Source: Alphaproteobacteria bacterium (GTDB taxonomy: Bacteria; Pseudomonadota; Alphaproteobacteria; GCA-2731375). From it: DNA of 64,000 nucleotides. The stretch lies in the NCBI GenBank assembly GCA_965232515.1, contig CBDDPY010000002.1, positions 3,744,001 to 3,808,000 on the forward strand. The letters run 5' to 3'. Shown in pieces: positions 41,806 to 57,176 of this stretch (its first letter is position 1; each line of letters opens with the position of its first letter). Below the pieces are notes generated by a model. That model had not been told where the DNA came from, made no database searches, and saw only the letters and a program-made list of their open reading frames with translations. The position numbers were made by a program, and so were the translations under genes.

Positions 41806-42508
41806 GCCCGTGCTGTCGGTGACCGGGCTGCATGCCGGCTACGGGCCGACGCCGATCCTGCAAGGCGTCGACCTGCAGGTGGCGCGCGGCGAGATCGTCA
41901 GCCTGATCGGACGCAACGGCGTCGGCAAGACCACGATCCTGCGCTGCCTGATGGGTCAGCTCCGGGTCACGGCCGGCGAGATCCGCTATCTCGATCAGGA
42001 CATCACCAAACTGACGCCGGACGCGCGGGCACGGCTGGGGATCGGCTACATTCCGCAGGGGCGGGAGGTCTTTCCCCGCCTCACGGTGGAAGAGAATCTT
42101 TATGTCGGCGAGCTGATTGGCGGGCCGAAGGGCCGCAAGGTGGCCGATCGGGTCTACGACTATTTCCCGCGCCTGCATGAGCGCCGTGGCCAGGCCGCTG
42201 GCACCATGAGCGGCGGCGAACAACAACAGCTCGCCATCGGCCGGGCGCTGATCGGCAACCCATCCCTGCTGCTGCTCGACGAACCGTCGGAGGGCATTCA
42301 GCCGTCGATCGCGCAGATGATCTGCGAGGCGCTGAAATCGATCCGGGACGAGCTGGGCAGCACCATTCTGTTCGTCGAACAGAACCTGGACACCATCATG
42401 ACGCTGAGCGAACGTTGCTATGTCGTCGAGAAGGGGCGCATCGATGCGCATATCGACGCCGGGCAACTCGCCGACCGGAATACCGTACGCCAAAGCCTGC
42501 TGATCTGA
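41795..42508 (+). CDS. ABC ATP-binding protein (UrtE-like)
   Basis: GRNGVGKTT; MSGGEQQQLAIGRAL; DEPSEGIQP. Confidence 0.92.
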   Translation: MSTEPVLSVTGLHAGYGPTPILQGVDLQVARGEIVSLIGRNGVGKTTILRCLMGQLRVTAGEIRYLDQDITKLTPDARARLGIGYIPQGREVFPRLTVEENLYVGELIGGPKGRKVADRVYDYFPRLHERRGQAAGTMSGGEQQQLAIGRALIGNPSLLLLDEPSEGIQPSIAQMICEALKSIRDELGSTILFVEQNLDTIMTLSERCYVVEKGRIDAHIDAGQLADRNTVRQSLLI

Positions 42509-43430: not shown

Positions 43431-45206
43431 CTAGCGACCGTAAACCGGCGTCGGAATGCCTTCCATACGCGCTTTGATCTGCAAGGAAACATAAAGCGAG
43501 AACTGGCGGGACAGGGCGAGGTTGCCGCCATGGAACCAGAGCGCTTCCTGCTTCGTCGGCTTCCACATGTTGCGCAATTCCCCTTCCCAGGGACCGGGGT
43601 CGCCCCGGATGCCGGAGCCGTAACCCCAGAACTTGCCCACGGTCTCGGCCACCTCGTCGGAGATCAGGTGCGCGACCATTTCATCCATCGAGCCATAGCC
43701 GGTCGCGTGAATGATCACATCGGCGGGAAGCTCCTGACCGTCCTCAAACGCAATCCCGGTTTCGGTGAATTCCTTGATCTCGACACCCGGCTTCAACTTG
43801 ATCTCACCCTTGGCGATCAGGTCGGACGCCCCGACATCGATGTAATAGCCCGATGCGGTCCGCAGGGCCTGGGCCATCAGACCGGAAGCGTCTTCACCGA
43901 AGTTGAGCAGGAAGCCTGCGGCCTCGAGCCGGGCATAGAAGTCCGCGTCGACCCGGGCAATTTCCGCATACAGAGGCGTTTGCGATTCCGCCAGCAAGGC
44001 ATAGGGGACGGACGCCGCGATCAGGTCGGCCTTCTCCGTATCGATGCCACGGGCCAGCGCCTCCTCGGAATAGAGCGCCGCGAAGCCAAGCGTCATCAAC
44101 GTCTCCGACCGCACGACAATGGTCGGCGACCGCTGAATCATGGTGACGTCGGCGTCATGCTCCCACAAATCGACACAGATATCGTGCGCCGAGCTGCCCG
44201 ATCCGATGACCAGGCATTTCCTGCCCCTGAAGTCTTCGCCGCTGGAGAACTGACTGGTGTGGATGGCGGCGCCTTTGAAACGGTCAGCGCCGGGAAAATC
44301 GATCACCTTCGCATAGCCGTAGGCGCCGGTGGCGAACACGAGCTGTTTGGGACGTAACTCGATGTCGTTGTCGCCACGCGTGACCCGGACCCGCCATTCC
44401 TTGCCGGCCTCATCGAATTCGGCCTGCCGGCACTCGGTCTCGGTCCAATAGTCCAGCTCCATCACCCGGGCATACATCTCCAGCCAATCGCCGAACTTGT
44501 CCTTCGGCGTGAAAACCGGCCAGTCGTCGGGAAATGGCAGATAAGGCATGTGGTCGTACCAGACCGGATCATGCAGCACGAGCGAGCGATAGCGGTTTCG
44601 CCAGGAATCGCCCGCGCGCTTGTTCTTCTCGACGACGAGCGTCGACACCCCCAACCGCTTCAGGCGCGCGGCGAGCGCGATCCCACCCTGCCCGCCGCCG
44701 ATGATCAGACAATACGGTTGTTTTTCGTAGCCGAGCGCGGCCGTTTCGGCTCGACGCCGGTCCTGCCAGGTTTCGCGGTTCTTGACCGCGCCATGTTTGA
44801 CGCCGTTGATCCGGCTCCTGCCCTTGCGTTCCTCGTGCCCTTTCAATTCGGTCATGGTGGTCAGAAGCGTCCGACACTTGCCCGCAACCAGACGCAGGAG
44901 CCCGCGGCCTCTGGCCACCGCGGTTTCGAACCTGAACCAAACCTCGATAACGCCATCGTCGAGCATGGTTTCGTCTTCGACCCGCCAGGCACTTGGCGCC
45001 GTCGCATCGAGGGTTTGCGTCAGCATGTCGGCGATCCCCGCCGGCCCCTCCACGGTTTTGATATTCCAGGTGAAGGTCAGGAAATCGCGCCAATAGCATT
45101 CCGGCGCGAAGCAGGCGACCGTACCCGGGATATCGCGACGCTCGAGCGCGTCCGCGAACCCGGCGAGCCAGGCTTCAGCGGTGGTTTGTTGGCGCGTGTC
45201 GTTCAT
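43431..45206 (-). CDS. Flavin-containing monooxygenase, type II FMO-like, with N-terminal SnoaL-like extension
   Basis: IIGGGQGG; WRNRY; FKGAAIHTSQF (FxGxxxHxxxF); IGSGSSAHD; ATGY; about 160 aa N-terminal extension (WRDFLTFTW, FRFET). Confidence 0.88.
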   Translation of the reverse strand: MNDTRQQTTAEAWLAGFADALERRDIPGTVACFAPECYWRDFLTFTWNIKTVEGPAGIADMLTQTLDATAPSAWRVEDETMLDDGVIEVWFRFETAVARGRGLLRLVAGKCRTLLTTMTELKGHEERKGRSRINGVKHGAVKNRETWQDRRRAETAALGYEKQPYCLIIGGGQGGIALAARLKRLGVSTLVVEKNKRAGDSWRNRYRSLVLHDPVWYDHMPYLPFPDDWPVFTPKDKFGDWLEMYARVMELDYWTETECRQAEFDEAGKEWRVRVTRGDNDIELRPKQLVFATGAYGYAKVIDFPGADRFKGAAIHTSQFSSGEDFRGRKCLVIGSGSSAHDICVDLWEHDADVTMIQRSPTIVVRSETLMTLGFAALYSEEALARGIDTEKADLIAASVPYALLAESQTPLYAEIARVDADFYARLEAAGFLLNFGEDASGLMAQALRTASGYYIDVGASDLIAKGEIKLKPGVEIKEFTETGIAFEDGQELPADVIIHATGYGSMDEMVAHLISDEVAETVGKFWGYGSGIRGDPGPWEGELRNMWKPTKQEALWFHGGNLALSRQFSLYVSLQIKARMEGIPTPVYGR

Positions 45207-45236
45207 GGCGTACGGTCACGTTTTCGGATGGCGGTC

Positions 45237-46331
45237 TCAGGCCAGATGTATCGCCTGCTCGGTTTCGATGCTCTCTTCGGCCGCCAGAACGATGCGCAGG
45301 CTGTTGACGGCCGCATCCATGGATTCGCTCAGGTCGAGGTCTTCACGGATCGCCTTCAGAAAGTAGGCCTGTTCCCGGTCGCAGAGTTCCTGGTGATCGG
45401 GCTCGTCCTCCATGCTCATGATCTCGTCGGGTTTGGCGAAGTTCTTGTCGGCATCGACGGCGGCGTGATGGATTTTCAGAGCGTTGGTCTTGGTGTGCTG
45501 ATCGATATCGGCGGAATCGGACACATCGTCCTTCTGCTGCCCGCCACCTTCGCCGTCTTGCGGCACGACGATGGAAACGGCGCCCTTGGGACCGACGACG
45601 TCTTTCACGAAAAAGGCGATCTCGCTCATCATCGGCCCCCAGCCGGCCTCATACCAGCCGACCGAGCCGTCATCGAAGGTCACGTGCAGATGGCCGTAGT
45701 TCTGCTTCGCCGCATCGGCCCACAGGCTGGCGCCGATGCCGTGCACGCGCACCGGCTTCGCGCCGGTCAGCTGGCACATCACGTCGACATAGTGCACGCC
45801 GCAATCGACGATCGGGATCAGGGAATCGATCAGGTTCTTGTGCCAGGCCCAGGCCGGCCCGCTGCTCTGCTGGTTGAGGTTGAGCCGCATCACCAACGGT
45901 TTGCCGAGCGTCTTGCCGACTTCGATGAATTTCACCCAGGACGGATGCACGCGAAGGATATAGCCCAACACCAGTTTTCGGTTCTTGGCGCGGGCGGCGG
46001 CGACGACTTTTTCAGCGTCCTCGATATTCGTCGCGATCGGTTTTTCCATGAACACGTGGCAATTGGCGTCGAAAGCCTTGAGGGCATATTCGGCATGGGT
46101 ATTCGGCCACGTGTTGATCGACACCGCGTCCGGCCGGGTTTCCGCCAGGGCCTGCTCGTAGTCCTCGAACAGCGGATAGCCCGCCAGCTCCGCGGGGATG
46201 TCGGTGCGGCTCTTGATCGTCCGGCTCATGATCCCGACGATCTCGAAGCCGTCCATGTTGTGATAGGCCTTGGCGTGCGAGACGCCCATATTGCCCAGAC
46301 CGACGACCAGTATTTTCAACTTATCAGCCAT
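45237..46331 (-). CDS. Gfo/Idh/MocA oxidoreductase, probable NAD+-dependent sulfoquinovosidase (GH188/SqgA-like)
   Basis: VVGLGNMG; FMEKP; GYILR; LNQQS...W..H; IVDCGVHYVD; WYEAGWGPM. The SQase assignment rests on recalled family resemblance and context. Confidence 0.7.
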   Translation of the reverse strand: MADKLKILVVGLGNMGVSHAKAYHNMDGFEIVGIMSRTIKSRTDIPAELAGYPLFEDYEQALAETRPDAVSINTWPNTHAEYALKAFDANCHVFMEKPIATNIEDAEKVVAAARAKNRKLVLGYILRVHPSWVKFIEVGKTLGKPLVMRLNLNQQSSGPAWAWHKNLIDSLIPIVDCGVHYVDVMCQLTGAKPVRVHGIGASLWADAAKQNYGHLHVTFDDGSVGWYEAGWGPMMSEIAFFVKDVVGPKGAVSIVVPQDGEGGGQQKDDVSDSADIDQHTKTNALKIHHAAVDADKNFAKPDEIMSMEDEPDHQELCDREQAYFLKAIREDLDLSESMDAAVNSLRIVLAAEESIETEQAIHLA

Positions 46332-46470
46332 GATTCATTCCCCCAGCGGAAGGCAGGCGTGGGACACAGGCCCTGTTGCTCGACGGACGCTGCCGGCACC
46401 GCGATGCCGGCGTCCGGCGCGGAACCGGCGGGCGCCCGCATCGGGGCGTCCGCCAATCCCGGAACACCGA

Positions 46471-47646
46471 TCAGCGAACGGCGTTGGCGAAGAAGCGTTC
46501 TTTGATCGCGTCGATATCAACGGCCGCCATATCGGCCGACAGTTCGTAGCCATCGGCATCGGCCTTGACCTTGGCCTTGTCGAAGCTGTTCGCCGGACCG
46601 ATGAATTCGTTGCTGACGACTTTCGACACATCGACCGGTTTGGTCAGCTGGCCAATGTCGTTCAATGTCTTGAAGAACAGCTCCCATCGAGCCATTTCGT
46701 GCCAGCCCCAGCCTTCCCGCTTCGACATGTCGCCACGGAAAACGTTGGCCAGCTGCATCATCGATTCGGTCCCCAATTCCGTGCCGAGATTCTTCTTCAC
46801 GATCGGGAACTGCTTGAAGACGATCTCGGTCGCCGCCAAGGGATTCTGATGTCCGAATTCCATGCCCATAGCCCAGCCGCGCAGATACGCTTCCAGGAAT
46901 TTGTGGCGCTCGGCATCGGCAATATCACTCCGCCGGACAACAAAGGAGTTTGCCGGGAAGTTGGAATGATCGACGCCGAGCCAATATTCGAACTCCAGGC
47001 CCTTGCCGGTCCAGTCGGCCCGCAAGCCTTCCCATGCCAGCGCGGCATCGCCCTGACCTGACGCCAGAACCGTGCCCCATTGCGGCCAGCCGGCCTCGAC
47101 ATACTTGATCTTTTTCGGATCGACACCGGCGGCGGCAAACATCGGATCGGTGATCGATTGCCAGGCGGCGCTGCCCAGCAGCACGGTCTTGCCTTCCATA
47201 TCCTTCAGGTCTTTCACGCCCTCGCCGGGACGGAAGGCGAAATCGAAGACGTCCAGCGCGCCCATGTTGAAGACGGAAACCAGATCCATGTCGTTCTGCA
47301 GGGCGAACGAGAACACGCCCGGCGACGGGAAACCCATATCGGCCTGACCGAGCGCGACGAACTTTACGGTCGACGTGCCATCCGAAGGACCAGGTTCCAT
47401 CTTGGTTTCGAGGTCGCCGAAATAGCCCATGGCCTTGGCAACCCAATAGCCATAGTCGTCAAGCACCTCCAACGTGCCGCGCGGCGAAATCCAGGTAAAC
47501 GGCTTGTCCGCCGCGCTCGCGGCACCGCACAACAACGACGTGCCGCCCAGCGTCGATGCCACGACCGCGCCACTGGCGGACACTTGCAGGAACCGTCGAC
47601 GGTCCATGCCGCCCCGTTTGATGTTGTTATTGGTTATTTCCGACAT
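46471..47646 (-). CDS. NitT/TauT (NMT1/SsuA-like) ABC substrate-binding protein with Tat signal
   Basis: MDRRRFLQ twin-arginine motif; GQADMG; GVKDLKDMEGKTV; AYLRGWAMG. Confidence 0.85.
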   Translation of the reverse strand: MSEITNNNIKRGGMDRRRFLQVSASGAVVASTLGGTSLLCGAASAADKPFTWISPRGTLEVLDDYGYWVAKAMGYFGDLETKMEPGPSDGTSTVKFVALGQADMGFPSPGVFSFALQNDMDLVSVFNMGALDVFDFAFRPGEGVKDLKDMEGKTVLLGSAAWQSITDPMFAAAGVDPKKIKYVEAGWPQWGTVLASGQGDAALAWEGLRADWTGKGLEFEYWLGVDHSNFPANSFVVRRSDIADAERHKFLEAYLRGWAMGMEFGHQNPLAATEIVFKQFPIVKKNLGTELGTESMMQLANVFRGDMSKREGWGWHEMARWELFFKTLNDIGQLTKPVDVSKVVSNEFIGPANSFDKAKVKADADGYELSADMAAVDIDAIKERFFANAVR

Positions 47647-47764
47647 TTCATCCTCCTCCTTATCGGGCCATTCTTCGGTTCTGTTCTTGGCGAATGCCTT
47701 TGTGCTCCGGGCCCGTCATGTCGTGCAAATCCGGCTCGCTCGATTGCCGGACCTTTCAGATTTT

Positions 47765-48622
47765 CTATGCCTCCCAACTCGCCCACTTCTTCCCGATCAG
47801 GAAGAAGGTGACGTAGATCAGGATACCCAATATCGACAGGATCAGGATCACGGCGAAGAACTGCGGCATCTGCAGCGTCGCGGAAAACGTCGTCAGCCGG
47901 TTGCCGAGGCCAAATCCGCCACCGACCATTTCGGCGCCGACAGCCGTCAGCAGGCCGAAGATCGCGCCGATCATCAAGCCGACGATGATCATCGGCATCG
48001 CCATCGGCACGCGGATCTTCATGAATATCTGCATGGTCGTGGCGCCGAAAGACCGCGCCAGCGCGATCTTCGCCAGATCGACCCGGCGAAAGCCCGTTGC
48101 CGAATTGATCATCACCATCGGACCCGATGCCAGCGCCACGGCAATGATCCGCGGCTCGTAGCCGAACCCGAAATAAAGGATCAGCAGCGGCACCAGCGCC
48201 AGCATCGGCGTGGTGACGAGCATCAGAATGTAGGGCGCAATGATTTTCTCAACGAAGGGGAACTGGGTGATGACCGCGGCCAGGATCAGGCCGACCGAGG
48301 CGCCGATGCCATAGCCGGCAAACAACTCGATCAGCGTGTGACCGAGATGGGGACCGATAAATTCGAAATCCTGGAACAGGGCCAGGACAATCAGACTGGG
48401 CGGCGGCATGACGTAAAGCGGGATCTCCGCCAGCCGCAAATAGGCTTCGGCACCGCCAACGATGCAAACCGCGATCAGGACAATCGCCACGACCTCGCGG
48501 ATGGATTTGATACCTGGCCCACTGGTGATGCCCGATGGCGCGACGAGACTGGCGGATTGTTGTTGACCCGCCGCGTCTCCGCCGAACTCCGGGATCTTAT
48601 CGCCTAGCGCTTTATCAACCAT
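47765..48622 (-). CDS. NitT/TauT ABC permease
   Basis: MPPPS; TPMLALVPL; ARSFGAT..IFMKIRVP; AVGAEMVGG..GLG. Confidence 0.9.
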   Translation of the reverse strand: MVDKALGDKIPEFGGDAAGQQQSASLVAPSGITSGPGIKSIREVVAIVLIAVCIVGGAEAYLRLAEIPLYVMPPPSLIVLALFQDFEFIGPHLGHTLIELFAGYGIGASVGLILAAVITQFPFVEKIIAPYILMLVTTPMLALVPLLILYFGFGYEPRIIAVALASGPMVMINSATGFRRVDLAKIALARSFGATTMQIFMKIRVPMAMPMIIVGLMIGAIFGLLTAVGAEMVGGGFGLGNRLTTFSATLQMPQFFAVILILSILGILIYVTFFLIGKKWASWEA

Positions 48623-48635
48623 CGTTGCGGCCTCT

Positions 48636-49457
48636 CTACGACAAGCTTTCCGCCGGCATGTTCACGTCGCTCCCGGCAACCTGTTGGGGGCCATGTTCAA
48701 TTTCCGCCTTGATCTCATTGACCAGGTCGAACACCTCCCTGGTCGCCAGAAGATCGAGCGTTCTGGGCCGCGGAAACGGAATGGCAAAAACCTTGGCCAG
48801 CCGGCCCGGGCGGGCGGACATGACAAAGACCCGGTCGGACAGAAAGATTGCCTCGGCGATGTTGTGCGTAATGAAGACGATGGTCTTGCGGGTCTCCAGC
48901 CAGATCTCCTCGACCAGCATGTTCATCTCGTCGCGCGTGAACGCATCCAGCGCGCCGAACGGCTCGTCCATCAACAGCACGGACGGATTGAAGGACAGGG
49001 CCCGAACGATGGCCGCCCTTTGCTGCATGCCGCCCGACAATTCGCGCGGAAACTTGTTGCCGAACCCGCCAAGACCGACGCGTTCCAGCAGCCGGTCTAT
49101 GCGGTCGGCATCCGGTTTGACGCCCTTGATTTCGAACGGCAGCTCTATGTTTTTCGCCAGGTTTCGCCAGGGCAGCAGATTTGCTTCCTGGAACACCATG
49201 CCGATCTGTGGGTGGGGGCCCGTTACCTGCTCGCCGTCGAGATAAACGGCGCCGCTGGTCAAACTGTGCAAACCGGCCATGGACCACAGCAACGTCGTCT
49301 TGCCGCAACCAGATGGTCCGACAACCGAGACGAACTCGCTGTCGTCGACGGACATCGAGTATCGATCGATCGCATGAAGAGGCCCGGATTTTGTCTCGTA
49401 GAATTTGCTCGCGTTATCTACGACCAGTTTATGCGCACCCCCGGTCGCCTCACTCAT
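48636..49457 (-). CDS. NitT/TauT ABC ATP-binding protein
   Basis: GPSGCGKTT; LLPWR; LSGGMQQR; MDEPFGALDAFTR; MSARPG. Confidence 0.93.
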   Translation of the reverse strand: MSEATGGAHKLVVDNASKFYETKSGPLHAIDRYSMSVDDSEFVSVVGPSGCGKTTLLWSMAGLHSLTSGAVYLDGEQVTGPHPQIGMVFQEANLLPWRNLAKNIELPFEIKGVKPDADRIDRLLERVGLGGFGNKFPRELSGGMQQRAAIVRALSFNPSVLLMDEPFGALDAFTRDEMNMLVEEIWLETRKTIVFITHNIAEAIFLSDRVFVMSARPGRLAKVFAIPFPRPRTLDLLATREVFDLVNEIKAEIEHGPQQVAGSDVNMPAESLS

Positions 49458-49569
49458 ACCGTCACCCCCCTCACCCTGCCTGAACTTATCTTGGATTTTC
49501 TTTTCGTTGTCTCAGATGTCATGCCCGGAAGCGGGCCGCGAATGCGTTGAGGCGGCACCCGGATGCGAA

Positions 49570-49704
49570 TGTAAGTATCTTACACCTGCATATCACGCGC
49601 AACAGATTCAGCGCGATTATTGATGTTGTACTGCCTCGGTTCTAGGATAACCGAAACAATCGGCTTAAGTTTCCTACACGCTCGCGGCATGTTGGAAATC
49701 TACA
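49570..49704. promoter_or_regulatory. Three HexR/RpiR-type operators (TGTA-N7-TACA-like)
   Basis: TGTAAGTATCTTACA (49570), CTTAAGTTTCCTACA (49664), TGTTGGAAATCTACA (49690) in the divergent intergenic region. Confidence 0.65.
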
Positions 49705-49720
49705 TCGAGAGGCTTCCCAA

Positions 49721-50905
49721 TTGCCACAACGGTCCATGTACTGCTACGCGTGGGATCTGAAGGATGTTGGCGTCCCTGCCTTCGCCGAGGAATTACGCGC
49801 CAGACATCTAAATGCGATCACCCTGGCCTGCGCCTATCACGCCGGCAAATTCCTCAGACCGCATGGCCAGAGCGGCAAGGTCTATTTCCCCGAAGACGGC
49901 ACCGCCTACTTCAAATTTCACGGCGAGCGCTACGGCACCATCAAACCGGACGCCAACCACCTGATGGACGAACAGGACATCCTGGCTGAATGCTGTGCCC
50001 TCGGCGACGTGCCGGTCAATGCCTGGTTGGTGTTGATGCACAACAGCCGGTTGGGAGAGAGGCATCCCGAGGCGTGCGTCGCCAACGCCTTTGGCGACAG
50101 GTTCATCTACAGTCTCTGTCCAGCGGCGCCGGCGGCGCGCGCGTACGCCATCGCCATCTGCCAGGATGTGTCAGGCAGCTATCCGGTCGCCGGACTGACC
50201 TTGGAGACGCCCGGCTTTATGCCGTTCGAGCACGGTTACCACCATGAATTCGGCTTGTTGCGCCAGAATGCCTGGCTCAACAATCTGCTCGGGCTTTGTT
50301 TTTGCGACCATTGCACCGCCGGCGCCACGGCAACCGGCATCGACGTCGCCGGCTTGCGCGATCGGGTTGCCGCGATGATCGACAATTATCTCGCCAGCGA
50401 CATCGACTATGACGACGATATGGCGGATGCCTACTGGCTTGCCGACATCGTCACCGATCCGGATCTCGGCCGGTTCCTGAACTGGCGCTGCGGTGTGGTC
50501 GAGAGCTTGATTGGCGAGATCCGCCAGGCCGTCCGCGATGACTGCGTCATTTCGGTCCTGCCGTCGGTCGCCAGACCGACGGCCGGCGCCTGGTATGAAG
50601 GCAGCGACCTGGCTGGATTGGCACGCGTGGCGGACTATCTGGACGTCTGTTTCTACGAAACGGGACCTGAACGAATTGCGGCCGACCTGCATGATGTCAT
50701 GCGTCGCGTCGGGGATGTCGGCCACCTGCGCGCGGTGTTGCGGCCGGCGCACCCGGATCTGCGCAACGGCGACATGGTCGCGCAGGCCGTTCAGCTGCTG
50801 TGCGCCGCCGGCATCAAGGATATTGGTTTCTACAACTATGGGCATTTGCGCCCCGCCAGCCTGGACTGGATGGCGACGGCCCTGTCAAATCTGGAAGCCG
50901 GATGA
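49721..50905 (+). CDS. Conserved hypothetical protein, glycoside-hydrolase-like TIM barrel with CFCxxC motif
   Basis: TTG start after GAGAGG; Y.WD, AYHAG, W.V..H, LCP, LETP, HGYHHE, LCFCDHC; overlaps the downstream SDR start. Confidence 0.75.
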   Translation: MPQRSMYCYAWDLKDVGVPAFAEELRARHLNAITLACAYHAGKFLRPHGQSGKVYFPEDGTAYFKFHGERYGTIKPDANHLMDEQDILAECCALGDVPVNAWLVLMHNSRLGERHPEACVANAFGDRFIYSLCPAAPAARAYAIAICQDVSGSYPVAGLTLETPGFMPFEHGYHHEFGLLRQNAWLNNLLGLCFCDHCTAGATATGIDVAGLRDRVAAMIDNYLASDIDYDDDMADAYWLADIVTDPDLGRFLNWRCGVVESLIGEIRQAVRDDCVISVLPSVARPTAGAWYEGSDLAGLARVADYLDVCFYETGPERIAADLHDVMRRVGDVGHLRAVLRPAHPDLRNGDMVAQAVQLLCAAGIKDIGFYNYGHLRPASLDWMATALSNLEAG

Positions 50906-51693
50906 TGACTGATTTCGCGGGCAAGGTCGTTCTCATTACTGGCGCCGCCGGTGGTATCGGTCAGGCCCTTTGCCGTCTTTTTGCCGGTCGGGGCGGCCGC
51001 ATCGCCGCCCTGGACCGGGCACCAACCGTGTTGGAATTCGGCCGGCAACTGACCGGCGAGGGGTTTGACGCGGCTGCCGTGGTCGCCGATATCGCCGACC
51101 TGTCCCAGGTCGGCCAAGCCGTCGCCCAAATCCATGACGACCTGGGCAACATCGACATTCTGATCAACAACGCGGGCTTCTCGAAAGCCCCCAATCTGGA
51201 AACCGCCACCCCCGAGACCTGGAATGAAGATATCGCCGGCAATCTCGGTGGCGCCTTCCATTGCACCCGCCTGGCGATCGAAGACATGAAGGCCGCCGGC
51301 GCCGGCGCCATCGTCAACATCGGGTCGGTTAACGGCTTGTCGGCCCTCGGCGATCCGGCCTACAGCGCCGCCAAAGCCGGCCTGATCAGCTACACCAAGT
51401 CGGTGGCGCTCGAATATGGCCGCTTCGGCATCCGCGCCAATGTCATTTGTCCGGGAACGGTACGCACGCCGATCTTGGACAAGAAGGCTGAGCGCAACCC
51501 GGATGTCGAGGCGCAACTGGTCAAATGGTATCCGCTGGGACGCGTGGCGGAGCCGATTGAAATTGCCAAGGCGGCGGCATTCCTGGCCTCCGATGACGCG
51601 TCGGCTATCACCGGAACCATGCTGGCCGTCGATTGCGGCCTGACCGCGGGAAACATCCTCATGGCGCGCGAGTTGACGGCGGCGGAGTTCTGA
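50902..51693 (+). CDS. SDR oxidoreductase, probable sulfoquinovose 1-dehydrogenase-like
   Basis: TGAAGGIG; NNAGFS; GSVNGLSALGDPAYSAAKAG; EYGRFGIRAN; WYPLGR; DCGLTAGNILMARELT. Recalled resemblance to the sulfo-ED SQ dehydrogenase. Confidence 0.75.
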   Translation: MMTDFAGKVVLITGAAGGIGQALCRLFAGRGGRIAALDRAPTVLEFGRQLTGEGFDAAAVVADIADLSQVGQAVAQIHDDLGNIDILINNAGFSKAPNLETATPETWNEDIAGNLGGAFHCTRLAIEDMKAAGAGAIVNIGSVNGLSALGDPAYSAAKAGLISYTKSVALEYGRFGIRANVICPGTVRTPILDKKAERNPDVEAQLVKWYPLGRVAEPIEIAKAAAFLASDDASAITGTMLAVDCGLTAGNILMARELTAAEF

Positions 51694-51709
51694 GCGACGG
51701 GACGATGAC

Positions 51710-52651
51710 TTGACCGATCAAGACGTGAAACAGACAGAAACTGCTACCAGGGCCAACACCGAGCGCACGTCGGCGCCGTTCGACGACATCATTTCGCGTC
51801 TGCGGGAACTCCGGTCCGAGATGAAGCCGGCGGAACGCCGGGTCGCCGACGTGGTGCTGGGCGATGTCGAGTTCGCCGTCCGGGCCAGCAACACGACGCT
51901 CGCCGCCCAGGCCAATGTCAGTGAGCCCACCGTCACGCGGTTCTGTCGCACGCTGGGCTGCGAAGGCGTTCGGGATTTCAAGCTGCGTCTGGCGCAAAGC
52001 CTGGTCGTCGGCGATCTGTATTTTCAGAACCCGCCGCCCGTGCAGGAAAACTCCAACCTGCCCTATTGGAACAATGTCTTCCAGAAAGCCGGCGAGGCGG
52101 TACGGCTGGCGGAACGGCAATTGGACGAAGCGGCGGTCAGGGTCGCCGTCGATCACATCGCCCGGGCCAAGCGGATATTCATCTTCGGGGTCGGCGGCGG
52201 CTCGACGGCGCTGGCCCAGGACGCCCAGTTCCGGCTGTTCCGTTACGGACTATCGGTGACCGCCTATTCGGACACCTATCTGATCCGCATGGTCGCGTCC
52301 ACTTTGCGGCCAGACGATGTCGTGATCGCCATTTCCGCCACCGGGCGAACCCCGGAAATCGTCGATGCCGCAAACCTGGCGCGCCAATACCATGCCGTTG
52401 TCGTCGCCATCACACAGCCCGGCTCCGAACTGGCGGCCGCGGCGGATGTGGCGCTGACGATCGGCGTGCCCGAGATCGCCGACATCCTGAAGCCAACCGC
52501 GTCTCGTTTCGCCTTCATGGTGACGATGGATCTGCTGGCGACGGGTGTCGCCTATCAGCTCGGGTTGGACGCGCAGGAAAATCTGCGGCGGATCAAATAC
52601 AACCTCATGAATCTTCGTGACGGCGAGGTGTTGGAGCCGCTCGGCGACTAA
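51710..52651 (+). CDS. RpiR/HexR-family regulator (HTH + SIS)
   Basis: LAAQANVSEPTVTRFCRTLG; FGVGGGS; ISATGRT. Confidence 0.92.
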   Translation: MTDQDVKQTETATRANTERTSAPFDDIISRLRELRSEMKPAERRVADVVLGDVEFAVRASNTTLAAQANVSEPTVTRFCRTLGCEGVRDFKLRLAQSLVVGDLYFQNPPPVQENSNLPYWNNVFQKAGEAVRLAERQLDEAAVRVAVDHIARAKRIFIFGVGGGSTALAQDAQFRLFRYGLSVTAYSDTYLIRMVASTLRPDDVVIAISATGRTPEIVDAANLARQYHAVVVAITQPGSELAAAADVALTIGVPEIADILKPTASRFAFMVTMDLLATGVAYQLGLDAQENLRRIKYNLMNLRDGEVLEPLGD

Positions 52652-53149: not shown

Positions 53150-55165
53150 TCAAACCTTGCGGGCGATCAGCTCGCCTTCGCGAATGGCGTCGTTGACCCG
53201 CCGGGGCGCCATGGCGTCGCCGATCAGATGGCAGGCCGGCGCGCCATCACGATCCGACAGCCCGTGGTAAAGCGCGTCGTTGGCGGCGGCGCCGATGACC
53301 AGCACGACCTGGTCGATCCCATCCAGCGCCTCGGTCTCGTCGGTGTAAAGATCGCGGACCGTCACCGATGCCGGCGAAATCGCCGTCAGTTCGCGGTCGA
53401 CCAGAAAGCGGACGCCGGCCTTGCGCAGCATGCCATGCACCTTGCCCCAGTCGCGGCTGGCGGCCAGGTCGGGCGAGGGCTGCCCCAGTTGCGTGACGAA
53501 GGTGACCTCGGCGCCGTTCTGGGTCAGGTATTCCGCCGTCACGGCCGCCTGACGGCCGCCCATGGTGTCGAACAGCACGACACGGTCGCCGACCGGGCGG
53601 TCGGACCCGAGCAAATCCATATAGCTCAGGACATGCGGCAGGTCCGCGCCCGGCAACGGCGGGCCATCCCATTTCTCCGGCCGCAGCATGGTCCAGCCAT
53701 GGGTCAATCCGGTCGACCCGGTGGCGAAGACAACGTCGTCGAAGCCGCCCTGCTGCAGTTCCGCCAGCGTGATCTCGTGGCCGAGGCGGATATCCACCGC
53801 TTCTTCCGCGACCCGGGCGGCCAGCCAGTCGACGATATCGACCAGCTCCTGCCGACTTTCGGATTTCGCCCACCAGCGCACCTGACCGCCAAGCTCGACC
53901 CGCCGTTCGAACAGCGTCACCTGGTGGCCGCGCCGCGCCAACGTCCACGCGGCCCGCAAGCCCGCCGGCCCGCCGCCGACGACCGCCACCCGCTTGGCCG
54001 CCGGGGCCGTTGCCGGCGAGTCCTCGTCCAGCTCGAGTTCAGCGCCGGCCGACGGATTGTGGATACAGCCGATCGCGGCCTGCGCGAAGATCGCCGACAT
54101 GCACCAGTTCGCGCCCACGCAGGGGCGAATGCGTCTCGACTGGCCCCGTTCGGCCTTCGCGCCCCAGTTCGGATCGGCGACCAGCGCGCGAGCCATGCCG
54201 ACGAAGTCGCATTTGCCGTCGGCGAGAAAGCGCTCGGCCTCGTCCGGATAGACAATGCGGCCGACGCCGACAACAGGTACCGTGACAGCCTGCTTGACCT
54301 GCCGGGTCGCGGCCAACTGATATCCATGTTCCTCCGGCGAGGTCGGATAGATCAGCATGCGATTGATGTAGGTGCCGTGGGTCATGGACAGGTAATCGAT
54401 CAACCCGGTGTCCTGAAACCGGCGCGCCAGATCGGCCCATTCGTCCGGCCGCAGCCCGCCCTCGTGCCCGTCATCGGAATTGATGCGCATGCCCATGATC
54501 ATGTCCGGGCCGATCTCCTCGCGGGTGGCTTCGAGGATCTCGATGACGATGCGCATGCGGTTCTCGATCGAGCCGCCGAAGCCGTCGTTTCTGTGATTGG
54601 TCGCCGGCGACAGAAACTGGTTCAGCAGATAGCCGTGCGACATGCCATGGACTTCGACGCCATCCAATCCGCCTTCCCGCGAATAGCGCGCCGACAGCCG
54701 GTAGCCGTCGATGATCTCGTCGATGTCCTTCGGCGTCATGACATGCGGCATCTCGCGGTAGACGCCGCACGGGATCGATGACGGCGCCCAGACGGGCAGG
54801 CCGTTCGCGACGCTGTTGGTCTGGCGGCCCCGATGCCAGGGCTGCGACAGCAGTAGCGTGTCGAATTCGTGCACCGCGTCGGCCAGCTTGCGGTACTGCG
54901 CGGCCATGCGCGGATCGAACGCAAACGCCTTGCCCTTATAGGGCTGGGTCGTCGGATGCGCGGCCATCGCCTCCATGGTGATCACCGCCGCGCCACCCTT
55001 GGCGCGGGCCCGGTAGTAGGCGATATGGGCGTCGGTGAAGAGGTGGTCCTTCACCAGCAGCGTCGCGTGCGCGGTCATCCAGATGCGGTTGCGCACCGTT
55101 TTCGGGCCCAGCTTGATCGGGCTGAACAGCGTCGGGAACGCCGGCGTGTCGGTTGGATCGGTCAT
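53150..55165 (-). CDS. NADH:flavin oxidoreductase (OYE + FAD domain; DgcA/StcD-like)
   Basis: RNRIWMTAH; YYRARAKGG; GVEVH..HGYLLNQFLSP; IRPCVGANWC..C; VVGGGPAG. Confidence 0.9.
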   Translation of the reverse strand: MTDPTDTPAFPTLFSPIKLGPKTVRNRIWMTAHATLLVKDHLFTDAHIAYYRARAKGGAAVITMEAMAAHPTTQPYKGKAFAFDPRMAAQYRKLADAVHEFDTLLLSQPWHRGRQTNSVANGLPVWAPSSIPCGVYREMPHVMTPKDIDEIIDGYRLSARYSREGGLDGVEVHGMSHGYLLNQFLSPATNHRNDGFGGSIENRMRIVIEILEATREEIGPDMIMGMRINSDDGHEGGLRPDEWADLARRFQDTGLIDYLSMTHGTYINRMLIYPTSPEEHGYQLAATRQVKQAVTVPVVGVGRIVYPDEAERFLADGKCDFVGMARALVADPNWGAKAERGQSRRIRPCVGANWCMSAIFAQAAIGCIHNPSAGAELELDEDSPATAPAAKRVAVVGGGPAGLRAAWTLARRGHQVTLFERRVELGGQVRWWAKSESRQELVDIVDWLAARVAEEAVDIRLGHEITLAELQQGGFDDVVFATGSTGLTHGWTMLRPEKWDGPPLPGADLPHVLSYMDLLGSDRPVGDRVVLFDTMGGRQAAVTAEYLTQNGAEVTFVTQLGQPSPDLAASRDWGKVHGMLRKAGVRFLVDRELTAISPASVTVRDLYTDETEALDGIDQVVLVIGAAANDALYHGLSDRDGAPACHLIGDAMAPRRVNDAIREGELIARKV

Positions 55166-56163
55166 GCGGCCCCCCTTGACCCAATGATGTTGCCGCCGTC
55201 GGCGATCCGCAGGCAGGACGCCATGTGGCCATTGCCGTCTATCGCCACCTGTCCCGGTTCGATCGATCGGCAGTCCGGGATCGCAACCGGACAGCGGGTA
55301 TGGAACGCGCAGCCCGACGGCATGTCGATCGGCGACGGCACTTCGCCGTCCAGGACGTGACGCGCGATCTTGACCTTGGGATCGGCCGGCAGATGGGCGG
55401 ACAGAAGAGACTGCGTGTAGGGATGGACCGGCCGGTCGAAGAGATCCGTGGCAGACGCTTCTTCGACGATGCGGCCGAGGTAGAGCACGACGATCCGGTC
55501 GCTGATCAACCGGATGGTGCCGAGATCGTGTGAGATGAACAGCATGGCGGCCTTGGTCTGCGACCGGATCTCCGACAACAGCTCCAGGATCCCGGCCCGC
55601 ACCGACAGGTCGAGCGAGCTGGTCGGTTCGTCGAGCACGATCAGTCGCGGGTTGGTCGCGATCGCGCGCGCGATACAGACCCGCTGCAACTGGCCGCCGG
55701 ACAAGTCGCTGGGATGACGGTTCAGGAATTCCGGGCTCAGATGCACCCGGCGGGCCAGCGCCTCGGTCCGGTCGCGACGCTCGCTGCCCGACATGTCCTC
55801 GTGCAGCAACAGCGGCTCGCCGATCAGGTTGCCGACCTTCATGCGCGGGTTCAGCGCGCTCCAAGGGTCCTGGAAAACAATCTGCATGTCGCGCCGCAGC
55901 CGCCGGGTCGATTTCGCCGGCAGGTGTGTGATGTCCTGGCCACCGAACACGATTCTGCCGGCTGTCGGCTCGGTGAGCCGGAGCATGGCTCGACCGATCG
56001 TCGACTTGCCCGAGCCGCTCTCGCCGACCATGCCGAGCGTTTCGCCGGGGCGGATCGACAGGCTGACGCCGTTGACCGCGTTCACCACCTGCCCGGTCCG
56101 GCCCACCGGAAAGCGCTTCGTGAGACCGGATACCTCGACTGTCGGTTCCAGGCGTTCCGTCAT
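55162..56163 (-). CDS. Peptide/nickel ABC ATP-binding protein (OppF-like)
   Basis: GESGSGKST; LSGGQLQR; HPYTQSL; GCAFHTRC. Confidence 0.93.
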   Translation of the reverse strand: MTERLEPTVEVSGLTKRFPVGRTGQVVNAVNGVSLSIRPGETLGMVGESGSGKSTIGRAMLRLTEPTAGRIVFGGQDITHLPAKSTRRLRRDMQIVFQDPWSALNPRMKVGNLIGEPLLLHEDMSGSERRDRTEALARRVHLSPEFLNRHPSDLSGGQLQRVCIARAIATNPRLIVLDEPTSSLDLSVRAGILELLSEIRSQTKAAMLFISHDLGTIRLISDRIVVLYLGRIVEEASATDLFDRPVHPYTQSLLSAHLPADPKVKIARHVLDGEVPSPIDMPSGCAFHTRCPVAIPDCRSIEPGQVAIDGNGHMASCLRIADGGNIIGSRGAA

Positions 56164-57176
56164 GCGGCGGCGCCCTCGGATTCCGTGGCGTCCACGCGCT
56201 CCGGCAGGTCTCCAGCGAAATGACACCTGGCCCGGTGGCGCTCGGAAATCTCCACATCGGGCGGCGGTTCGCCGCAGACATCCTGGGCATAACGACAGCG
56301 GTCGCGGTGATGACAACCGCTGGGCAGGTTGTAGAGATCGGGCGGCGGCCCGCCGAGGGTGGATGCCTGTCCGATCGACAGGCGCTCCGGCGTCGCCGCG
56401 ATCAGGTTGCGCGTGTAGGGGTGGGACGGATTGTCGAAGACGGCGCCGACAGGGCCGATCTCGACGATGCCGCCGGCGAACATCACGGCGATGCGTTCGC
56501 AGTAGTGCGCCACGATGCCGAGGTCGTGGGTAATGACGATCGCCGCCATGTTGAAGCGCGCCACGAGATCCCTCAGCAGGTCGAGGATCTGGGCCTGGAC
56601 CGTGACGTCCAATCCGGTGGTCGGCTCGTCCGCGATCAGAAGCTTCGGCGAATTCATCAGCGCCATGGCGATCAGCACCCGCTGGGCCATGCCGCCGGAC
56701 AGCTCGTGCGGCCAGGCGTCGGCGCGGCTGGTCGGATCGGGAATGCCGACCGCCTCCATCATGTCGAGCGCACGTTTGCGCGCGTCCGACCGCGAAACCT
56801 GCTTGTGCGCCTGATGCACCCGGACCAGCTGCTCGCCGATCCGCGTCAGCGGATCGAGCGAGGTCCGCGGGTTCTGAACCACCATGGCGATCGCATCGCC
56901 GCGCAACCGGTTGAGGTCATCGGGGGCCATGTCCAGCAGGCTAGCGCCGTCGAACACGACCTCACCGCCGACGACCCTGGCCGGTGGGCGCAACAGACCG
57001 CAGATCGATTGCGCCGTCAGGGACTTCCCCGCGCCGGTCTCGCCGACCAGGCCAAGGATTTCCCCGGCCGACACCGAGAACGACACGTCGTTCAGCGCCG
57101 CCGCGACGCGCACGCGATTGTCGATGTCCCGGGAAACGAAATGCGTTCTGAGATCCTTGACGGCCAGAATGGTCAT
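56160..57176 (-). CDS. Peptide/nickel ABC ATP-binding protein (OppD-like)
   Basis: GETGAGKS; HELSGGMAQR; ADEPTTGLDVTVQ. Confidence 0.93.
   Translation of the reverse strand: MTILAVKDLRTHFVSRDIDNRVRVAAALNDVSFSVSAGEILGLVGETGAGKSLTAQSICGLLRPPARVVGGEVVFDGASLLDMAPDDLNRLRGDAIAMVVQNPRTSLDPLTRIGEQLVRVHQAHKQVSRSDARKRALDMMEAVGIPDPTSRADAWPHELSGGMAQRVLIAMALMNSPKLLIADEPTTGLDVTVQAQILDLLRDLVARFNMAAIVITHDLGIVAHYCERIAVMFAGGIVEIGPVGAVFDNPSHPYTRNLIAATPERLSIGQASTLGGPPPDLYNLPSGCHHRDRCRYAQDVCGEPPPDVEISERHRARCHFAGDLPERVDATESEGAAA

What the first reader, a model, noticed from the sequence alone, without database searches (positions are those of the whole stretch)
49721..50905. Uncharacterised Zn-motif TIM-barrel protein translationally coupled to the SQ-dehydrogenase-like SDR
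394 aa, no signal peptide, GH-like barrel features (LE, HGYHHE, CFCDHC reminiscent of the metal site of GH42-type proteins); its stop overlaps the SDR start (ATGA). It is a candidate new sulfo-glycosidase, lactonase or isomerase acting next to the dehydrogenase step.
Basis: partly seen in the sequence, partly recalled or inferred. Interest (0 to 1): 0.7.

Follow-up and report, generated by a model that had tools for sequence, protein, structure and literature searches.

The report
Unnamed GHL10-like barrel enzyme, dehydrogenase-coupled
This gene is real and encodes a member of a large, unnamed family of sugar-cleaving-type barrel enzymes that is almost always made together with a dehydrogenase, and its gene neighbours point to amino-sugar breakdown, not to the sulfosugar pathway first proposed.

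Summary
The ORF, its motifs and the ATGA stop/start overlap with the downstream SDR are all real. The protein matches no Pfam or NCBIfam model. It belongs to a large family: 1,561 50%-identity cluster representatives at E<=0.001. A family profile aligns with true GHL10 proteins over 266 columns (hhalign 92.6%). It does not align with GH42 (0.5%). One Glu (E157) is invariant in 97 of 97 relatives. There is no conserved carboxylate at barrel strand 7. A His-rich constellation is conserved, and a Cys4 site is kept or lost as a unit.

An SDR gene follows directly in 67 of 83 orthologous loci, with a 4-nt overlap in 45 of those. Other recurrent neighbours are Gfo/Idh/MocA dehydrogenases, ABC importers, de-N-acylases, fold-type-III PLP deaminase-like enzymes and RidA. 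The last three, with RpiR, mirror the published OngR/B/C/D module for N-acetyl-glucosaminate.

No sulfoglycolysis enzyme is among the conserved neighbours I annotated. My best reading is a cytoplasmic glycoside-cleaving enzyme of an oxidative amino-sugar pathway (confidence 0.42).

The parts
49721..50905 (+). Target gene ('TGT'): GHL10-like TIM-barrel protein, 394 aa from TTG 49721 (389 aa from ATG 49736)
49707..49712 (+). GAGAGG Shine-Dalgarno-like motif, 8 nt upstream of the TTG start
   Evidence: read; no tool test
50204..50206 (+). Codon of the invariant Glu (E157 in 389-aa numbering). It lies at the predicted end of barrel strand 4 and aligns with the Asp-Asp pair of GHL10.
   Evidence: 97 of 97; alignment
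50231..50248 (+). HGYHHE motif (H166, H169, H170, E171), in an insertion after strand 4 that GHL10 lacks
   Evidence: 92, 92, 93 and 86 of 97; insertion seen
50297..50314 (+). CFCDHC motif (C188, C190, C193). With C128 (50117-50119) it forms a probable structural Cys4 metal site.
   Evidence: All four Cys in 87 of 97; 3 or 4 of them replaced together in 6 of the other 10
50902..51693 (+). Classical SDR whose start overlaps the target's stop (ATGA). It has an Asn-Ser-Tyr-Lys tetrad and an Asp after strand 2.
51710..52651 (+). MurR/RpiR-family regulator (HTH_6 plus SIS domains), nearest the HexR model but below its cut-off
   Evidence: homologue in 34 of 84 loci
48636..49457 (-). ABC transporter ATPase, transcribed divergently from the target
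   Evidence: 52 of 84 loci
47765..48622 (-). ABC transporter permease
   Evidence: 49 of 84 loci
46471..47646 (-). NMT1/THI5-like substrate-binding protein with a twin-arginine-like N-terminus (RRRFLQ, read by eye)
   Evidence: 49 of 84 loci
45237..46331 (-). Gfo/Idh/MocA oxidoreductase ('GfoA')
   Evidence: 59 of 84 loci
43431..45206 (-). Class-B flavin monooxygenase with an N-terminal SnoaL-like domain
   Evidence: 19 of 84 loci
49458..49720 (.). Divergent intergenic region between the transporter operon and the target operon. It holds an imperfect palindrome at 49563-49591.
   Evidence: no function shown

Best explanation
The gene encodes a cytoplasmic enzyme of a large, unannotated sister family of the GHL10 glycoside-hydrolase-like TIM barrels.

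Shown:
- Homology to GHL10 across the barrel.
- One invariant Glu (E157) at the place of the GHL10 strand-4 Asp pair.
- A His (H102) where GHL10 has its conserved Arg.
- The strand-6 Tyr is kept.
- No conserved carboxylate at strand 7.
- A family-specific insertion carries HGYHHE and three of the four Cys.
- Production is tightly coupled to an SDR.

Inferred:
- The protein cleaves a glycosidic bond in a small imported amino-sugar-containing compound. E157 acts as general acid. There is no enzyme nucleophile at strand 7, so cleavage would be substrate-assisted through a 2-acylamido group, or lytic.
- The coupled SDR, read as NAD-preferring, and the Gfo/Idh/MocA enzymes then oxidise the released sugar to an N-acyl-amino-aldonate.
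- In sister loci this product is deacylated by an OngB-like D-aminoacylase and deaminated by a fold-type-III PLP enzyme with RidA.
- The Cys4 site is a structural Zn-type site, not the catalytic centre.
- The window's own cluster is a reduced version: importer, monooxygenase, GfoA, target, SDR and RpiR.
For: Fold.
- 39 of 97 relatives hit GHL10 and 11 of 97 hit GHL6.
- The family profile's best solved match is the GHL10 protein Cwp19, 5oq2, E 0.014.
- hhalign against 7 true GHL10 proteins: 92.6%, 266 columns, query 11-372.
- In the Atlas, the nearest named clusters for the 62%-identical P0071 are GHL10, DUF4015, GHL6 and GH42, at scores 0.89-0.92.

Active-site pattern.
- E157 is present in 97 of 97 relatives. 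E308 is present in 19 of 97.
- All nine of D7, H35, H102, D121, E157, H166, H169, H170, E171 are present in 73 of 97.
- H102 aligns with the GHL10 Arg, Y307 with the strand-6 Tyr, and A333 with the Gly that replaces the strand-7 Glu (residue names from passages of PMC5765458).

Cys4 site. Of the 10 relatives lacking the full set, 6 have 3 or 4 Cys replaced. Five of those 6 still keep the His/Asp/Glu set.

Coupling. The SDR follows directly in 67 of 83 loci; the overlap is 4 nt in 45 of the 67.

Context in 84 orthologous loci.
- By tblastn: SDR 76, GfoA 59, importer parts 49-52.
- By cluster counts, which are lower bounds: GfoB 40, VOC protein 27 plus 9, Amidohydro_3 24, deacetylase-type amidohydrolase 12, RidA 12, DSD-like 12. 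42 of 84 loci hold at least one of the amide-hydrolase, DSD or RidA families.
- The Amidohydro_3 neighbour matches D-aminoacylase (E 1.5e-163) and PpOngB (E 4.8e-145).
- The DSD-like neighbour matches D-threonine aldolase and D-threo-3-hydroxyaspartate dehydratase.
- The published ong cluster has the same set: RpiR regulator, D-aminoacylase, fold-type-III PLP deaminase and RidA (passages of PMC9537276).

Divergent relatives (27-40% identity) repeat the theme.
- H. volcanii pHV4: sugar ABC transporter, creatininase, target homologue, MR/MLE enzyme, SDR, RidA, eda.
- Rhizobium plasmids: deacylase, RidA, alanine-racemase-like enzyme, amidohydrolase.
- 80 metagenome loci: SDR in 23, amide hydrolases in 20, Creatininase-target-MBL triads in 5.
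- In those triads a separate MBL-fold hydrolase is present, which leaves the glycosidase step as the one unassigned.
Against: - No structure could be predicted, so strand assignments rest on alignments.
- The window protein itself matches no Pfam model at E<=0.01. The relatives' GHL10/GHL6 hits that I inspected are below the cut-off and cover only profile positions about 60-163 of 311.
- hhalign pairs E157 with the first Asp of the GHL10 pair, not with the Asp proposed as catalytic.
- The His-rich site looks more like a metal or anion site than a classical glycosidase site.
- The window's own cluster, and its genome nearby, lack the deacylase, deaminase, RidA, GfoB and VOC genes. The one 52%-identical Amidohydro_3 copy sits in an unrelated context.
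- On a Burkholderia plasmid the pair sits beside GH88, KduD and a KduI-like gene. After GH88 acts, no glycoside need remain.
- The importer in the window is of the NMT1/THI5 type, not a sugar type.
- No member of the family has been assayed.
Confidence: 0.42

Rival explanations
1. It is a hydrolase for the SDR's own product, such as an N-acyl-amino-aldonolactone. This would be the usual dehydrogenase-plus-lactonase pair, built here on a GH-like barrel with a His/Asp/Glu site, perhaps metal-assisted.
For: - Target-SDR adjacency is the most universal feature: 67 of 83 loci. It also holds at 40% identity on a Burkholderia plasmid, where GH88 already removes the glycosidic bond.
- The conserved site is His-rich.
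- Many loci have no other lactonase candidate.
Against: - Five divergent loci pair the target with a separate MBL-fold hydrolase. An Alicyclobacillus locus has a phosphotriesterase-like protein. Either could be the lactonase.
- The fold's known relatives act on glycans (listing, passages).
- In the window the target gene lies upstream of the SDR gene, which is a weak point.
Confidence: 0.2
2. It is a metal-dependent lyase, hydratase or isomerase acting on a keto-sugar intermediate. This would be an oxidative, non-hydrolytic glycoside-cleavage route: a Gfo/Idh/MocA or SDR enzyme oxidises the glycoside, the target eliminates the aglycone, and a second reductase restores the sugar.
For: - Orthologous clusters carry three oxidoreductases (GfoA, GfoB, SDR) and a VOC-fold protein.
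- GfoA and GfoB give weak hits to glycoside, disaccharide, levoglucosan and UDP-GlcNAc 3-dehydrogenase models, all below their cut-offs.
- DgpA is among GfoA's solved relatives.
- The target has no strand-7 nucleophile and is His-rich.
Against: - The known eliminases of such routes are, by my recollection and not by any test here, xylose-isomerase-like barrels, not GH-like ones.
- Metal binding has not been shown.
- Subfamilies with Creatininase-target-MBL triads lack the SDR.
Confidence: 0.15
3. One reading: a sulfosugar enzyme (sulfo-glycosidase, sulfogluconolactonase or isomerase) working beside a sulfoquinovose dehydrogenase.
For: - The importer's binding protein is distantly SsuA-like (TIGR01728, E 8e-10).
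- Conserved His, Lys and Arg residues could bind an anionic group.
- One relative's locus (L094) has a PF04143 sulphur-transport gene two genes away.
Against: - No known sulfoglycolysis enzyme is among the conserved neighbour families I annotated in 84 plus 80 loci.
- The SsuA score is 38 bits against a cut-off of 163.5.
- The genome's single GH31 scores best on the alpha-xylosidase model, 554 bits. It reaches only 233 of the required 553 bits on PRK10426. That PRK10426 is the YihQ model is my recollection.
- Most divergent relatives sit beside sugar-type ABC importers and amine-handling enzymes.
Confidence: 0.05

Closest known systems
GHL10 (Pfam PF02638; Cwp19 of Clostridioides difficile, PDB 5oq2; YddW-like proteins)
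   Same: - Homologous across the barrel: hhalign 92.6%, 266 columns. The profile's best solved match is Cwp19, E 0.014.
- Shared features: an acidic residue at the end of strand 4, a WR motif after the strand-4 region, a strand-6 Tyr, and no strand-7 Glu (passages of PMC5765458).
   Different: - The window protein does not match the Pfam model.
- It has Glu plus Ser/Thr in place of Asp-Asp, His in place of the conserved Arg, and Cys in place of the Asp of the DPG motif.
- It has an insertion with HGYHHE and CxCxxC that the 7 GHL10 proteins lack.
- It is cytoplasmic and lies in catabolic operons, whereas Cwp19 is a surface cell-wall enzyme.
GH42 beta-galactosidases
   Same: - A GH-type TIM barrel with an acid at strand 4.
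- GH42 is among the nearest structural matches of Cwp19 according to PMC5765458.
   Different: - hhalign 0.5% against 5 GH42 proteins.
- PF02449 was not among the 19 families listed for the 97 relatives.
- There is no strand-7 Glu.
- CxCxxC occurs once in the 5 GH42 proteins, at residue 49 of one of them and away from any NE motif.
The ong pathway for oxidised chitin (OngR, OngA, OngB, OngC, OngD, KdgK; PMC9537276, passages read)
   Same: Sister loci of the window's cluster hold an RpiR regulator, a D-aminoacylase/OngB-type deacylase (E 4.8e-145 to PpOngB), a fold-type-III PLP DSD/DTA-like enzyme and RidA. A glycosidase-like protein stands at the entry of the route.
   Different: - The entry enzyme in ong is a periplasmic GH20. 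Here it is a cytoplasmic GHL10-like protein.
- These clusters add an SDR, two Gfo/Idh/MocA enzymes, a VOC protein and often a flavin monooxygenase.
- They use ABC importers.
- The window's own cluster lacks the OngB/C/D-like genes.

Membership tests
GHL10 (PF02638) | Scores above the Pfam gathering cut-off (27.9 bits) | tested here: not met
   The window protein has no family at E<=0.01. 39 of 97 relatives hit at E<=0.1, best 1.1e-7. The three GHL10 hits I inspected score 16.5-22.9 bits and cover profile positions 60-163 of 311.
GHL10 (PF02638) | Profile-level homology to true members over the whole barrel | tested here: met
   hhalign of alignment A2 against 7 proteins that pass the PF02638 cut-off: 92.6%, E 4.7e-7, 266 columns, query 11-372. 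The template alignment is shallow.
GHL10 (PF02638) | Conserved active-site residues named for Cwp19: Arg132, Asp195/Asp196, Tyr297, Gly328 in place of the strand-7 Glu | tested here: inconclusive
   By alignment the equivalents are His102, Glu157 plus Thr158, Tyr307 and Ala333 (residue names). The Tyr and the missing strand-7 acid are shared. The Arg and the Asp pair are replaced.
GH42 (PF02449) | Sequence or profile match to the family | tested here: not met
   hhalign 0.5%. PF02449 was not among the 19 families listed for the 97 relatives.
GH42 (PF02449) | Glu acid/base at strand 4 and Glu nucleophile at strand 7 | tested here: not met
   E157 is invariant, but there is no conserved carboxylate at the strand-7 position. 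E308 is present in 19 of 97 relatives and aligns just after strand 6.
Structural Cys4 metal (Zn) site | Four Cys conserved together and lost together | tested here: met
   CCCC in 87 of 97 relatives. In 6 of the other 10, 3 or 4 Cys are replaced at once. Metal binding itself cannot be tested here.
Sulfoglycolysis gene clusters | Co-location with known sulfoquinovose enzymes (GH31 sulfoquinovosidase, SQ isomerase, kinase, aldolase, SG dehydratase, SLA dehydrogenase or reductase, SQ monooxygenase) | tested here: not met
   None appears among the neighbour families that recur in 84 and 80 loci and that I annotated. The list of pathway enzymes is recalled. Rare neighbours were not all annotated.
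Sulfoquinovose 1-dehydrogenase (for the coupled SDR) | Orthology to the characterised enzyme | not testable with these tools
   No curated model or reference sequence was on hand. The SDR's best matches are generic: PRK07074 below its cut-off and unnamed PDB 5tt0.

The most novel reading that the evidence does not exclude
The protein is the founding member of a new glycoside-cleaving enzyme family that has evolved from the GHL10 scaffold, with a remodelled His-rich centre and a Zn clasp. It would be the missing cytoplasmic entry enzyme of a widespread oxidative, non-phosphorylative amino-sugar route in soil Alphaproteobacteria, Acidobacteriota, Bacillota and haloarchaea. One example substrate is aldonate-ended (LPMO-oxidised) or partly deacetylated chito-disaccharides, whose products feed an Ong-like deacylase, deaminase and RidA module. 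In the window's variant, the imported glycoside would be anionic or otherwise unusual, taken up by an NMT1-type ABC system.
Probability: 0.15. Interest if true: 0.75.

Novelty: new variant of a known kind. Interest (0 to 1): 0.5.

Why it matters
The family is large: 1,561 representatives of 50%-identity clusters at E<=0.001, of which 355 are at E<=1e-30. It has no Pfam or NCBIfam model and no solved structure. My searches found no paper on it.

Its gene context is unusually consistent. That gives testable candidates for a gap in amino-sugar and oxidised-chitin catabolism outside the Gammaproteobacteria. If it is a glycosidase, it would define a new CAZy-type family with a non-classical mechanism. 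If it is a lactonase or lyase, it would be a case of a GH scaffold recruited to other chemistry.

For annotation, the practical outcome is that the sulfoquinovose label should not be propagated.

Tried and rejected
Structure and binding.
- Complex prediction for the target with the SDR was unavailable.
- The Atlas does not hold the window protein. I used the 62%-identical P0071 instead.

GH42 kinship.
- hhalign against 5 alphaproteobacterial GH42 proteins gave 0.5%.
- A CxCxxC search found one match in those 5 proteins, at residue 49 of L098 and not near an NE motif, and none in 7 GHL10 proteins.
- The GH42 comparison is rejected as homology. The Zn-site resemblance stays a recollection.

Fusions. 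No longer relatives of 682-2000 aa were found. The tool itself calls this weak evidence.

Own genome.
- It has no GHL10 or GH42 gene.
- The OngB-like copy at C2:2.69 Mb lies among unrelated genes.

Regulatory signals. Promoter-like sites around the operon matched chance (1 found, 1.0 expected). Terminator-like sites were fewer than chance (1 found, 3.3 expected).

Literature.
- Protein accession numbers of four homologues: 0 papers.
- Haloferax cluster terms: 0 papers.
- GHL10/DUF187/YngK/Cwp19: only Cwp19 and DogH papers were relevant (listing; PMC5765458 passages read).
- Oxidative GlcNAc terms and 3-keto-glycoside terms: listings only, nothing on this family.
- PMC12343721 (passages) predicts, from genomes only, a glucosaminate route in chitin-degrading natronoarchaea. 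Its clusters hold an IclR regulator, a dehydratase, a dehydrogenase and a RutC/RidA protein, much like the H. volcanii locus.
- Supplementary files were not opened.

Counts. My own ORF caller undercounts genes: it found the SDR in 43 loci where tblastn found it in 76. Cluster counts are therefore lower bounds.
Full report
OBSERVATION

The ORF 49721..50905 (+) is present.
- It runs 394 aa from a TTG start. An in-frame ATG at 49736 gives 389 aa, which is the form stored in the protein collection (P0002).
- I favour the TTG. A GAGAGG motif lies 8 nt upstream of it (49707-49712). Homologues carry an equivalent five-residue N-terminal extension, and one of them has Ile at the position of the internal Met.
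- The TGA stop (50903-50905) overlaps the ATG of the next gene (50902-50904) as ATGA.
- Codon-position GC content is typical of a real gene in this genome: GC3 0.77 against GC2 0.45.
- The gene occurs once in the 7.39-Mb genome.

Residue numbers below follow the 389-aa form.

WHAT THE PROTEIN IS

It matches no Pfam-A or NCBIfam model. As a single sequence it matches no solved structure.

The family is large.
- 2,559 proteins at E<=0.001 among 8,000 scored candidates, all unnamed or called 'hypothetical protein'.
- 1,561 representatives of 50%-identity clusters at E<=0.001, of which 355 are at E<=1e-30.

The family is spread thinly across many lineages.
- 4 of 300 other genomes sampled from the same class hold it, and neither of the 2 sampled from the same family.
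- It is found in Hyphomicrobiales and Acidobacteriota, and in single Gemmatimonadota and Gammaproteobacteria MAGs.
- It is found on Rhizobium plasmids (113 records), in haloarchaea, and in single Alicyclobacillus, Nonomuraea and Burkholderia records.

Remote homology places it beside GHL10.
- 39 of 97 diverse relatives hit PF02638 at E<=0.1 (best 1.1e-7), and 11 of 97 hit GHL6.
- The hits I inspected are below the gathering cut-off and cover only the strand-3 to strand-4 part of the model.
- A profile of the 97 relatives finds the GHL10 protein Cwp19 as its best solved match (E 0.014).
- hhalign of the same profile against seven proteobacterial proteins that pass the PF02638 cut-off gives 92.6% probability, E 4.7e-7, 266 aligned columns spanning residues 11-372.
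- The same test against five GH42 proteins gives 0.5%.
- The Atlas, queried with the 62%-identical P0071, holds a confident model (pTM 0.94). Its nearest named clusters are GHL10, DUF4015, GHL6 and GH42.

ACTIVE-SITE PATTERN

Conservation in the 97-sequence alignment:

| Residue(s) | Present in (of 97) |
|---|---|
| E157 | 97 |
| D7, H35, H102, D121 | 93, 92, 94, 90 |
| H166, H169, H170, E171 | 92, 92, 93, 86 |
| R251, Y307, Y366 | 92, 88, 93 |

All nine of D7, H35, H102, D121, E157, H166, H169, H170 and E171 are present together in 73 of 97 relatives.

By the GHL10 alignments and the residue names given in the Cwp19 structure paper (PMC5765458, passages):
- E157 lies at the Asp195/Asp196 pair at the end of strand 4. 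hhalign pairs it with the first Asp.
- H102 takes the place of the conserved Arg132.
- W250-R251 match the WRR motif.
- Y307 matches the strand-6 Tyr297.
- A333 stands where GHL10 has Gly328, which is the position of the nucleophile Glu in GH42 and GH5.

E308, which looks like a candidate second acid in the window protein, is present in only 19 of 97 relatives. The family therefore shares with GHL10 a single acid and no strand-7 nucleophile.

The stretch from about residue 162 to 250 is an insertion relative to GHL10. It carries HGYHHE and CxCxxC.

The four Cys (C128, C188, C190, C193) behave as one unit.
- All four are present in 87 of 97 relatives.
- In six of the other ten, three or four are replaced together. 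Five of those six keep the His/Asp/Glu set.
- I read this as a dispensable structural metal site, separate from the catalytic centre.
- CxCxxC is absent from the seven GHL10 proteins. It occurs once in the five GH42 proteins, at residue 49 of one of them and away from any NE motif.

GENE CONTEXT: ORTHOLOGUES

I compared 84 loci: 80 from genome contigs (54-68% identity) and 4 from the class sample (45-48%).

Window proteins found by tblastn:

| Window protein | Loci (of 84) |
|---|---|
| SDR | 76 |
| GfoA | 59 |
| ABC ATPase / permease / binding protein | 52 / 49 / 49 |
| RpiR regulator | 34 |
| Flavin monooxygenase | 19 |

Many loci are cut short by contig ends.

The SDR gene follows the target directly in 67 of 83 loci examined.
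- Its start overlaps the target's stop by 4 nt in 45 of the 67. It lies within -1 to +5 nt in 20 more.
- One of the 67, L038, had stop codons in my reading frame.
- The SDR has the Asn-Ser-Tyr-Lys tetrad and an invariant Asp after strand 2. From general SDR knowledge I read that Asp as NAD preference.

Families that recur in these loci but are missing from the window (counts are lower bounds):

| Family | Loci |
|---|---|
| Second Gfo/Idh/MocA enzyme (GfoB) | 40 |
| 114-aa protein without a Pfam match; from its FDHVGI-type motifs I read it as VOC/glyoxalase-like (no tool test) | 27 |
| Larger glyoxalase-family protein | 9 |
| Amidohydro_3 protein | 24 |
| Deacetylase-type amidohydrolase (PRK09237, 370 bits, cut-off 371) | 12 |
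| RidA | 12 |
| Ala_racemase_N plus D-ser_dehydrat protein | 12 |
| CutC | 7 |
| Amidase | 7 |

42 of the 84 loci hold at least one amide hydrolase, DSD-like protein or RidA.

- The Amidohydro_3 protein matches D-aminoacylase (E 1.5e-163) and PpOngB (E 4.8e-145).
- The PLP protein matches D-threonine aldolases and D-threo-3-hydroxyaspartate dehydratase.

The published ong cluster for oxidised chitin (PMC9537276, passages) consists of:
- a MurR/RpiR repressor;
- a GH20 hexosaminidase;
- the D-aminoacylase-type GlcNAc1A deacetylase OngB;
- the RidA protein OngD;
- a KDG kinase.

The nearest relatives of the window's cluster (for example L010 and L063, in the order target, SDR, RpiR, Amidohydro_3, GfoB, glyoxalase, DSD, with RidA also present in L063) thus carry the same regulator, deacylase and deaminase set. 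It sits behind a different, cytoplasmic, GH-like entry enzyme and extra dehydrogenases.

GENE CONTEXT: DIVERGENT RELATIVES

| Locus | Identity | Neighbours |
|---|---|---|
| H. volcanii pHV4 | 29% | IclR, sugar ABC transporter, creatininase-family protein, target homologue, MR/MLE enzyme, SDR, RidA, eda |
| Alicyclobacillus plasmid | 32% | sugar ABC transporter, phosphotriesterase-like protein, creatininase, KDGP aldolase, FGGY kinase |
| Rhizobium plasmids | 35-36% | AstE/AspA-type deacylase, RidA, 'alanine racemase', amidohydrolase, two ABC systems, SDR |
| Burkholderia plasmid | 40% | target plus SDR beside GH88, KduD, a KduI-like gene and a sugar ABC transporter |
| Acidobacteriota loci | 55% | MBL-fold protein, target, SDR, GfoA, a further Gfo enzyme and a DSD-like protein |

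In 80 metagenome loci seeded from a 33%-identical subfamily, the recurrent neighbours were:
- SDR in 23 loci. It lies directly downstream in 14 of the 49 loci that have enough flanking sequence.
- Amide hydrolases in 20.
- Gfo enzymes in 13.
- Sugar-type ABC parts in 12.
- RidA, DSD, ornithine-cyclodeaminase-like or class-III aminotransferase genes in 14.
- Creatininase-target-MBL triads in five loci.

A genome-based paper on chitin-degrading natronoarchaea predicts a glucosaminate route. Its clusters hold IclR, a dehydratase, a dehydrogenase and a RutC/RidA protein (PMC12343721, passages).

INTERPRETATION

Across very different lineages the target travels with four kinds of partner:
- a dehydrogenase, usually a coupled SDR;
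- an importer, often of the disaccharide type;
- a de-N-acylase, drawn from any of five superfamilies;
- enzymes that deaminate D-alpha-amino-beta-hydroxy acids.

The simplest scheme that uses all of these is as follows.
1. An amino-sugar-containing glycoside is imported.
2. It is cleaved.
3. The released sugar is oxidised to the N-acyl-amino-aldonate.
4. That product is deacylated.
5. It is deaminated to a 2-keto-3-deoxy acid.

Cleavage is the step left for a GH-like protein, above all where a separate MBL-fold or phosphotriesterase-like hydrolase could serve as the lactonase. With one acid and no strand-7 nucleophile, cleavage would be substrate-assisted or lytic. Cwp19 is reported as a lytic transglycosylase (title in the listing).

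This mechanism is inferred, not shown, and I put it at 0.42. The rivals are:
- a lactonase for the SDR's product (0.20);
- a metal-dependent lyase or isomerase in an oxidative glycoside-cleavage route (0.15);
- the sulfosugar reading (0.05).

THE WINDOW'S OWN CLUSTER

The cluster is reduced. It comprises the monooxygenase, GfoA, the three transporter genes, and, transcribed divergently, the target, the SDR and RpiR (43431-52651).
- The genome has no close GfoB, VOC or CutC homologue. Its best Amidohydro_3 copy (52% identity) lies 1.1 Mb away among unrelated genes.
- The cluster's GC content (0.59-0.62) is below that of its flanks (0.64-0.67). Together with the patchy distribution, this suggests acquisition by gene transfer.

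THE SULFOSUGAR IDEA

- The SDR is generic.
- The binding protein is far below the SsuA cut-off.
- No known sulfoglycolysis enzyme is among the recurrent neighbours that I annotated.
- The genome's only GH31 looks like an alpha-xylosidase.
- One relative's locus holds a PF04143 sulphur-transport gene. That is the only hint in its favour besides the transporter type.

NOVELTY

The fold class is known. GHL10 itself is barely characterised. This sister family has no model, no name, no structure and no assay, and my searches found no paper on it. I rate it a new variant of a known kind, of moderate interest.

Noticed in passing
window 43500-51000: The whole cluster has a lower GC content (0.59-0.62) than its flanks (0.64-0.67). 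The family is found in only 4 of 300 other genomes sampled in the class. Both facts are consistent with horizontal acquisition.
   Followed up: partly
window 49563-49591: An imperfect 13-nt inverted repeat (77% complementary, 3-nt spacer) lies in the divergent intergenic region between the transporter and target operons. It is a possible RpiR operator; its conservation was not tested.
   Followed up: no
L044:9627-9986 and 26 other loci (e.g. L023:9604-9945): A conserved protein of about 114 aa lies directly upstream of the target in 27 orthologous loci. It has no Pfam or NCBIfam match. Its FDHVGI...H...E pattern looks like a minimal VOC/glyoxalase fold. It is absent from the window's genome.
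   Followed up: partly
L018:11952-13337: A 461-aa protein with no Pfam match follows target-SDR in this sugar-ABC-type cluster.
   Followed up: no
window 35195-42508: Upstream lies a separate block: an ORF with a GGSSGGS amidase-signature-like motif, a second amidase/formamidase-like ORF, and what look like five branched-chain-amino-acid-type ABC transporter genes. These were read by eye and not run against family libraries.
   Followed up: no
window 53150-56290 (-): The 1,046-aa ORF listed here probably runs over more than one gene. Its C-terminal part reads like an NADH:flavin oxidoreductase and its upstream part overlaps a peptide-type ABC ATPase frame. Not examined.
   Followed up: no
L094:12091-13554 (-): A PF04143 sulphur-transport (YeeE/YedE-like) gene lies two genes from a 45%-identical target homologue. 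This is the only sulphur-related neighbour seen.
   Followed up: no
G000:C2:363158-365545 (L188:721-3108): This is the genome's single GH31 gene. It scores best on the alpha-xylosidase model (554 bits, cut-off 606).
   Followed up: partly
L088 (H. volcanii pHV4 285099-306226): A tractable model archaeon carries a 29%-identical homologue in an IclR-regulated cluster with creatininase, an MR/MLE enzyme, an SDR, RidA and eda. No paper on it was found. It is a good system for genetics.
   Followed up: partly
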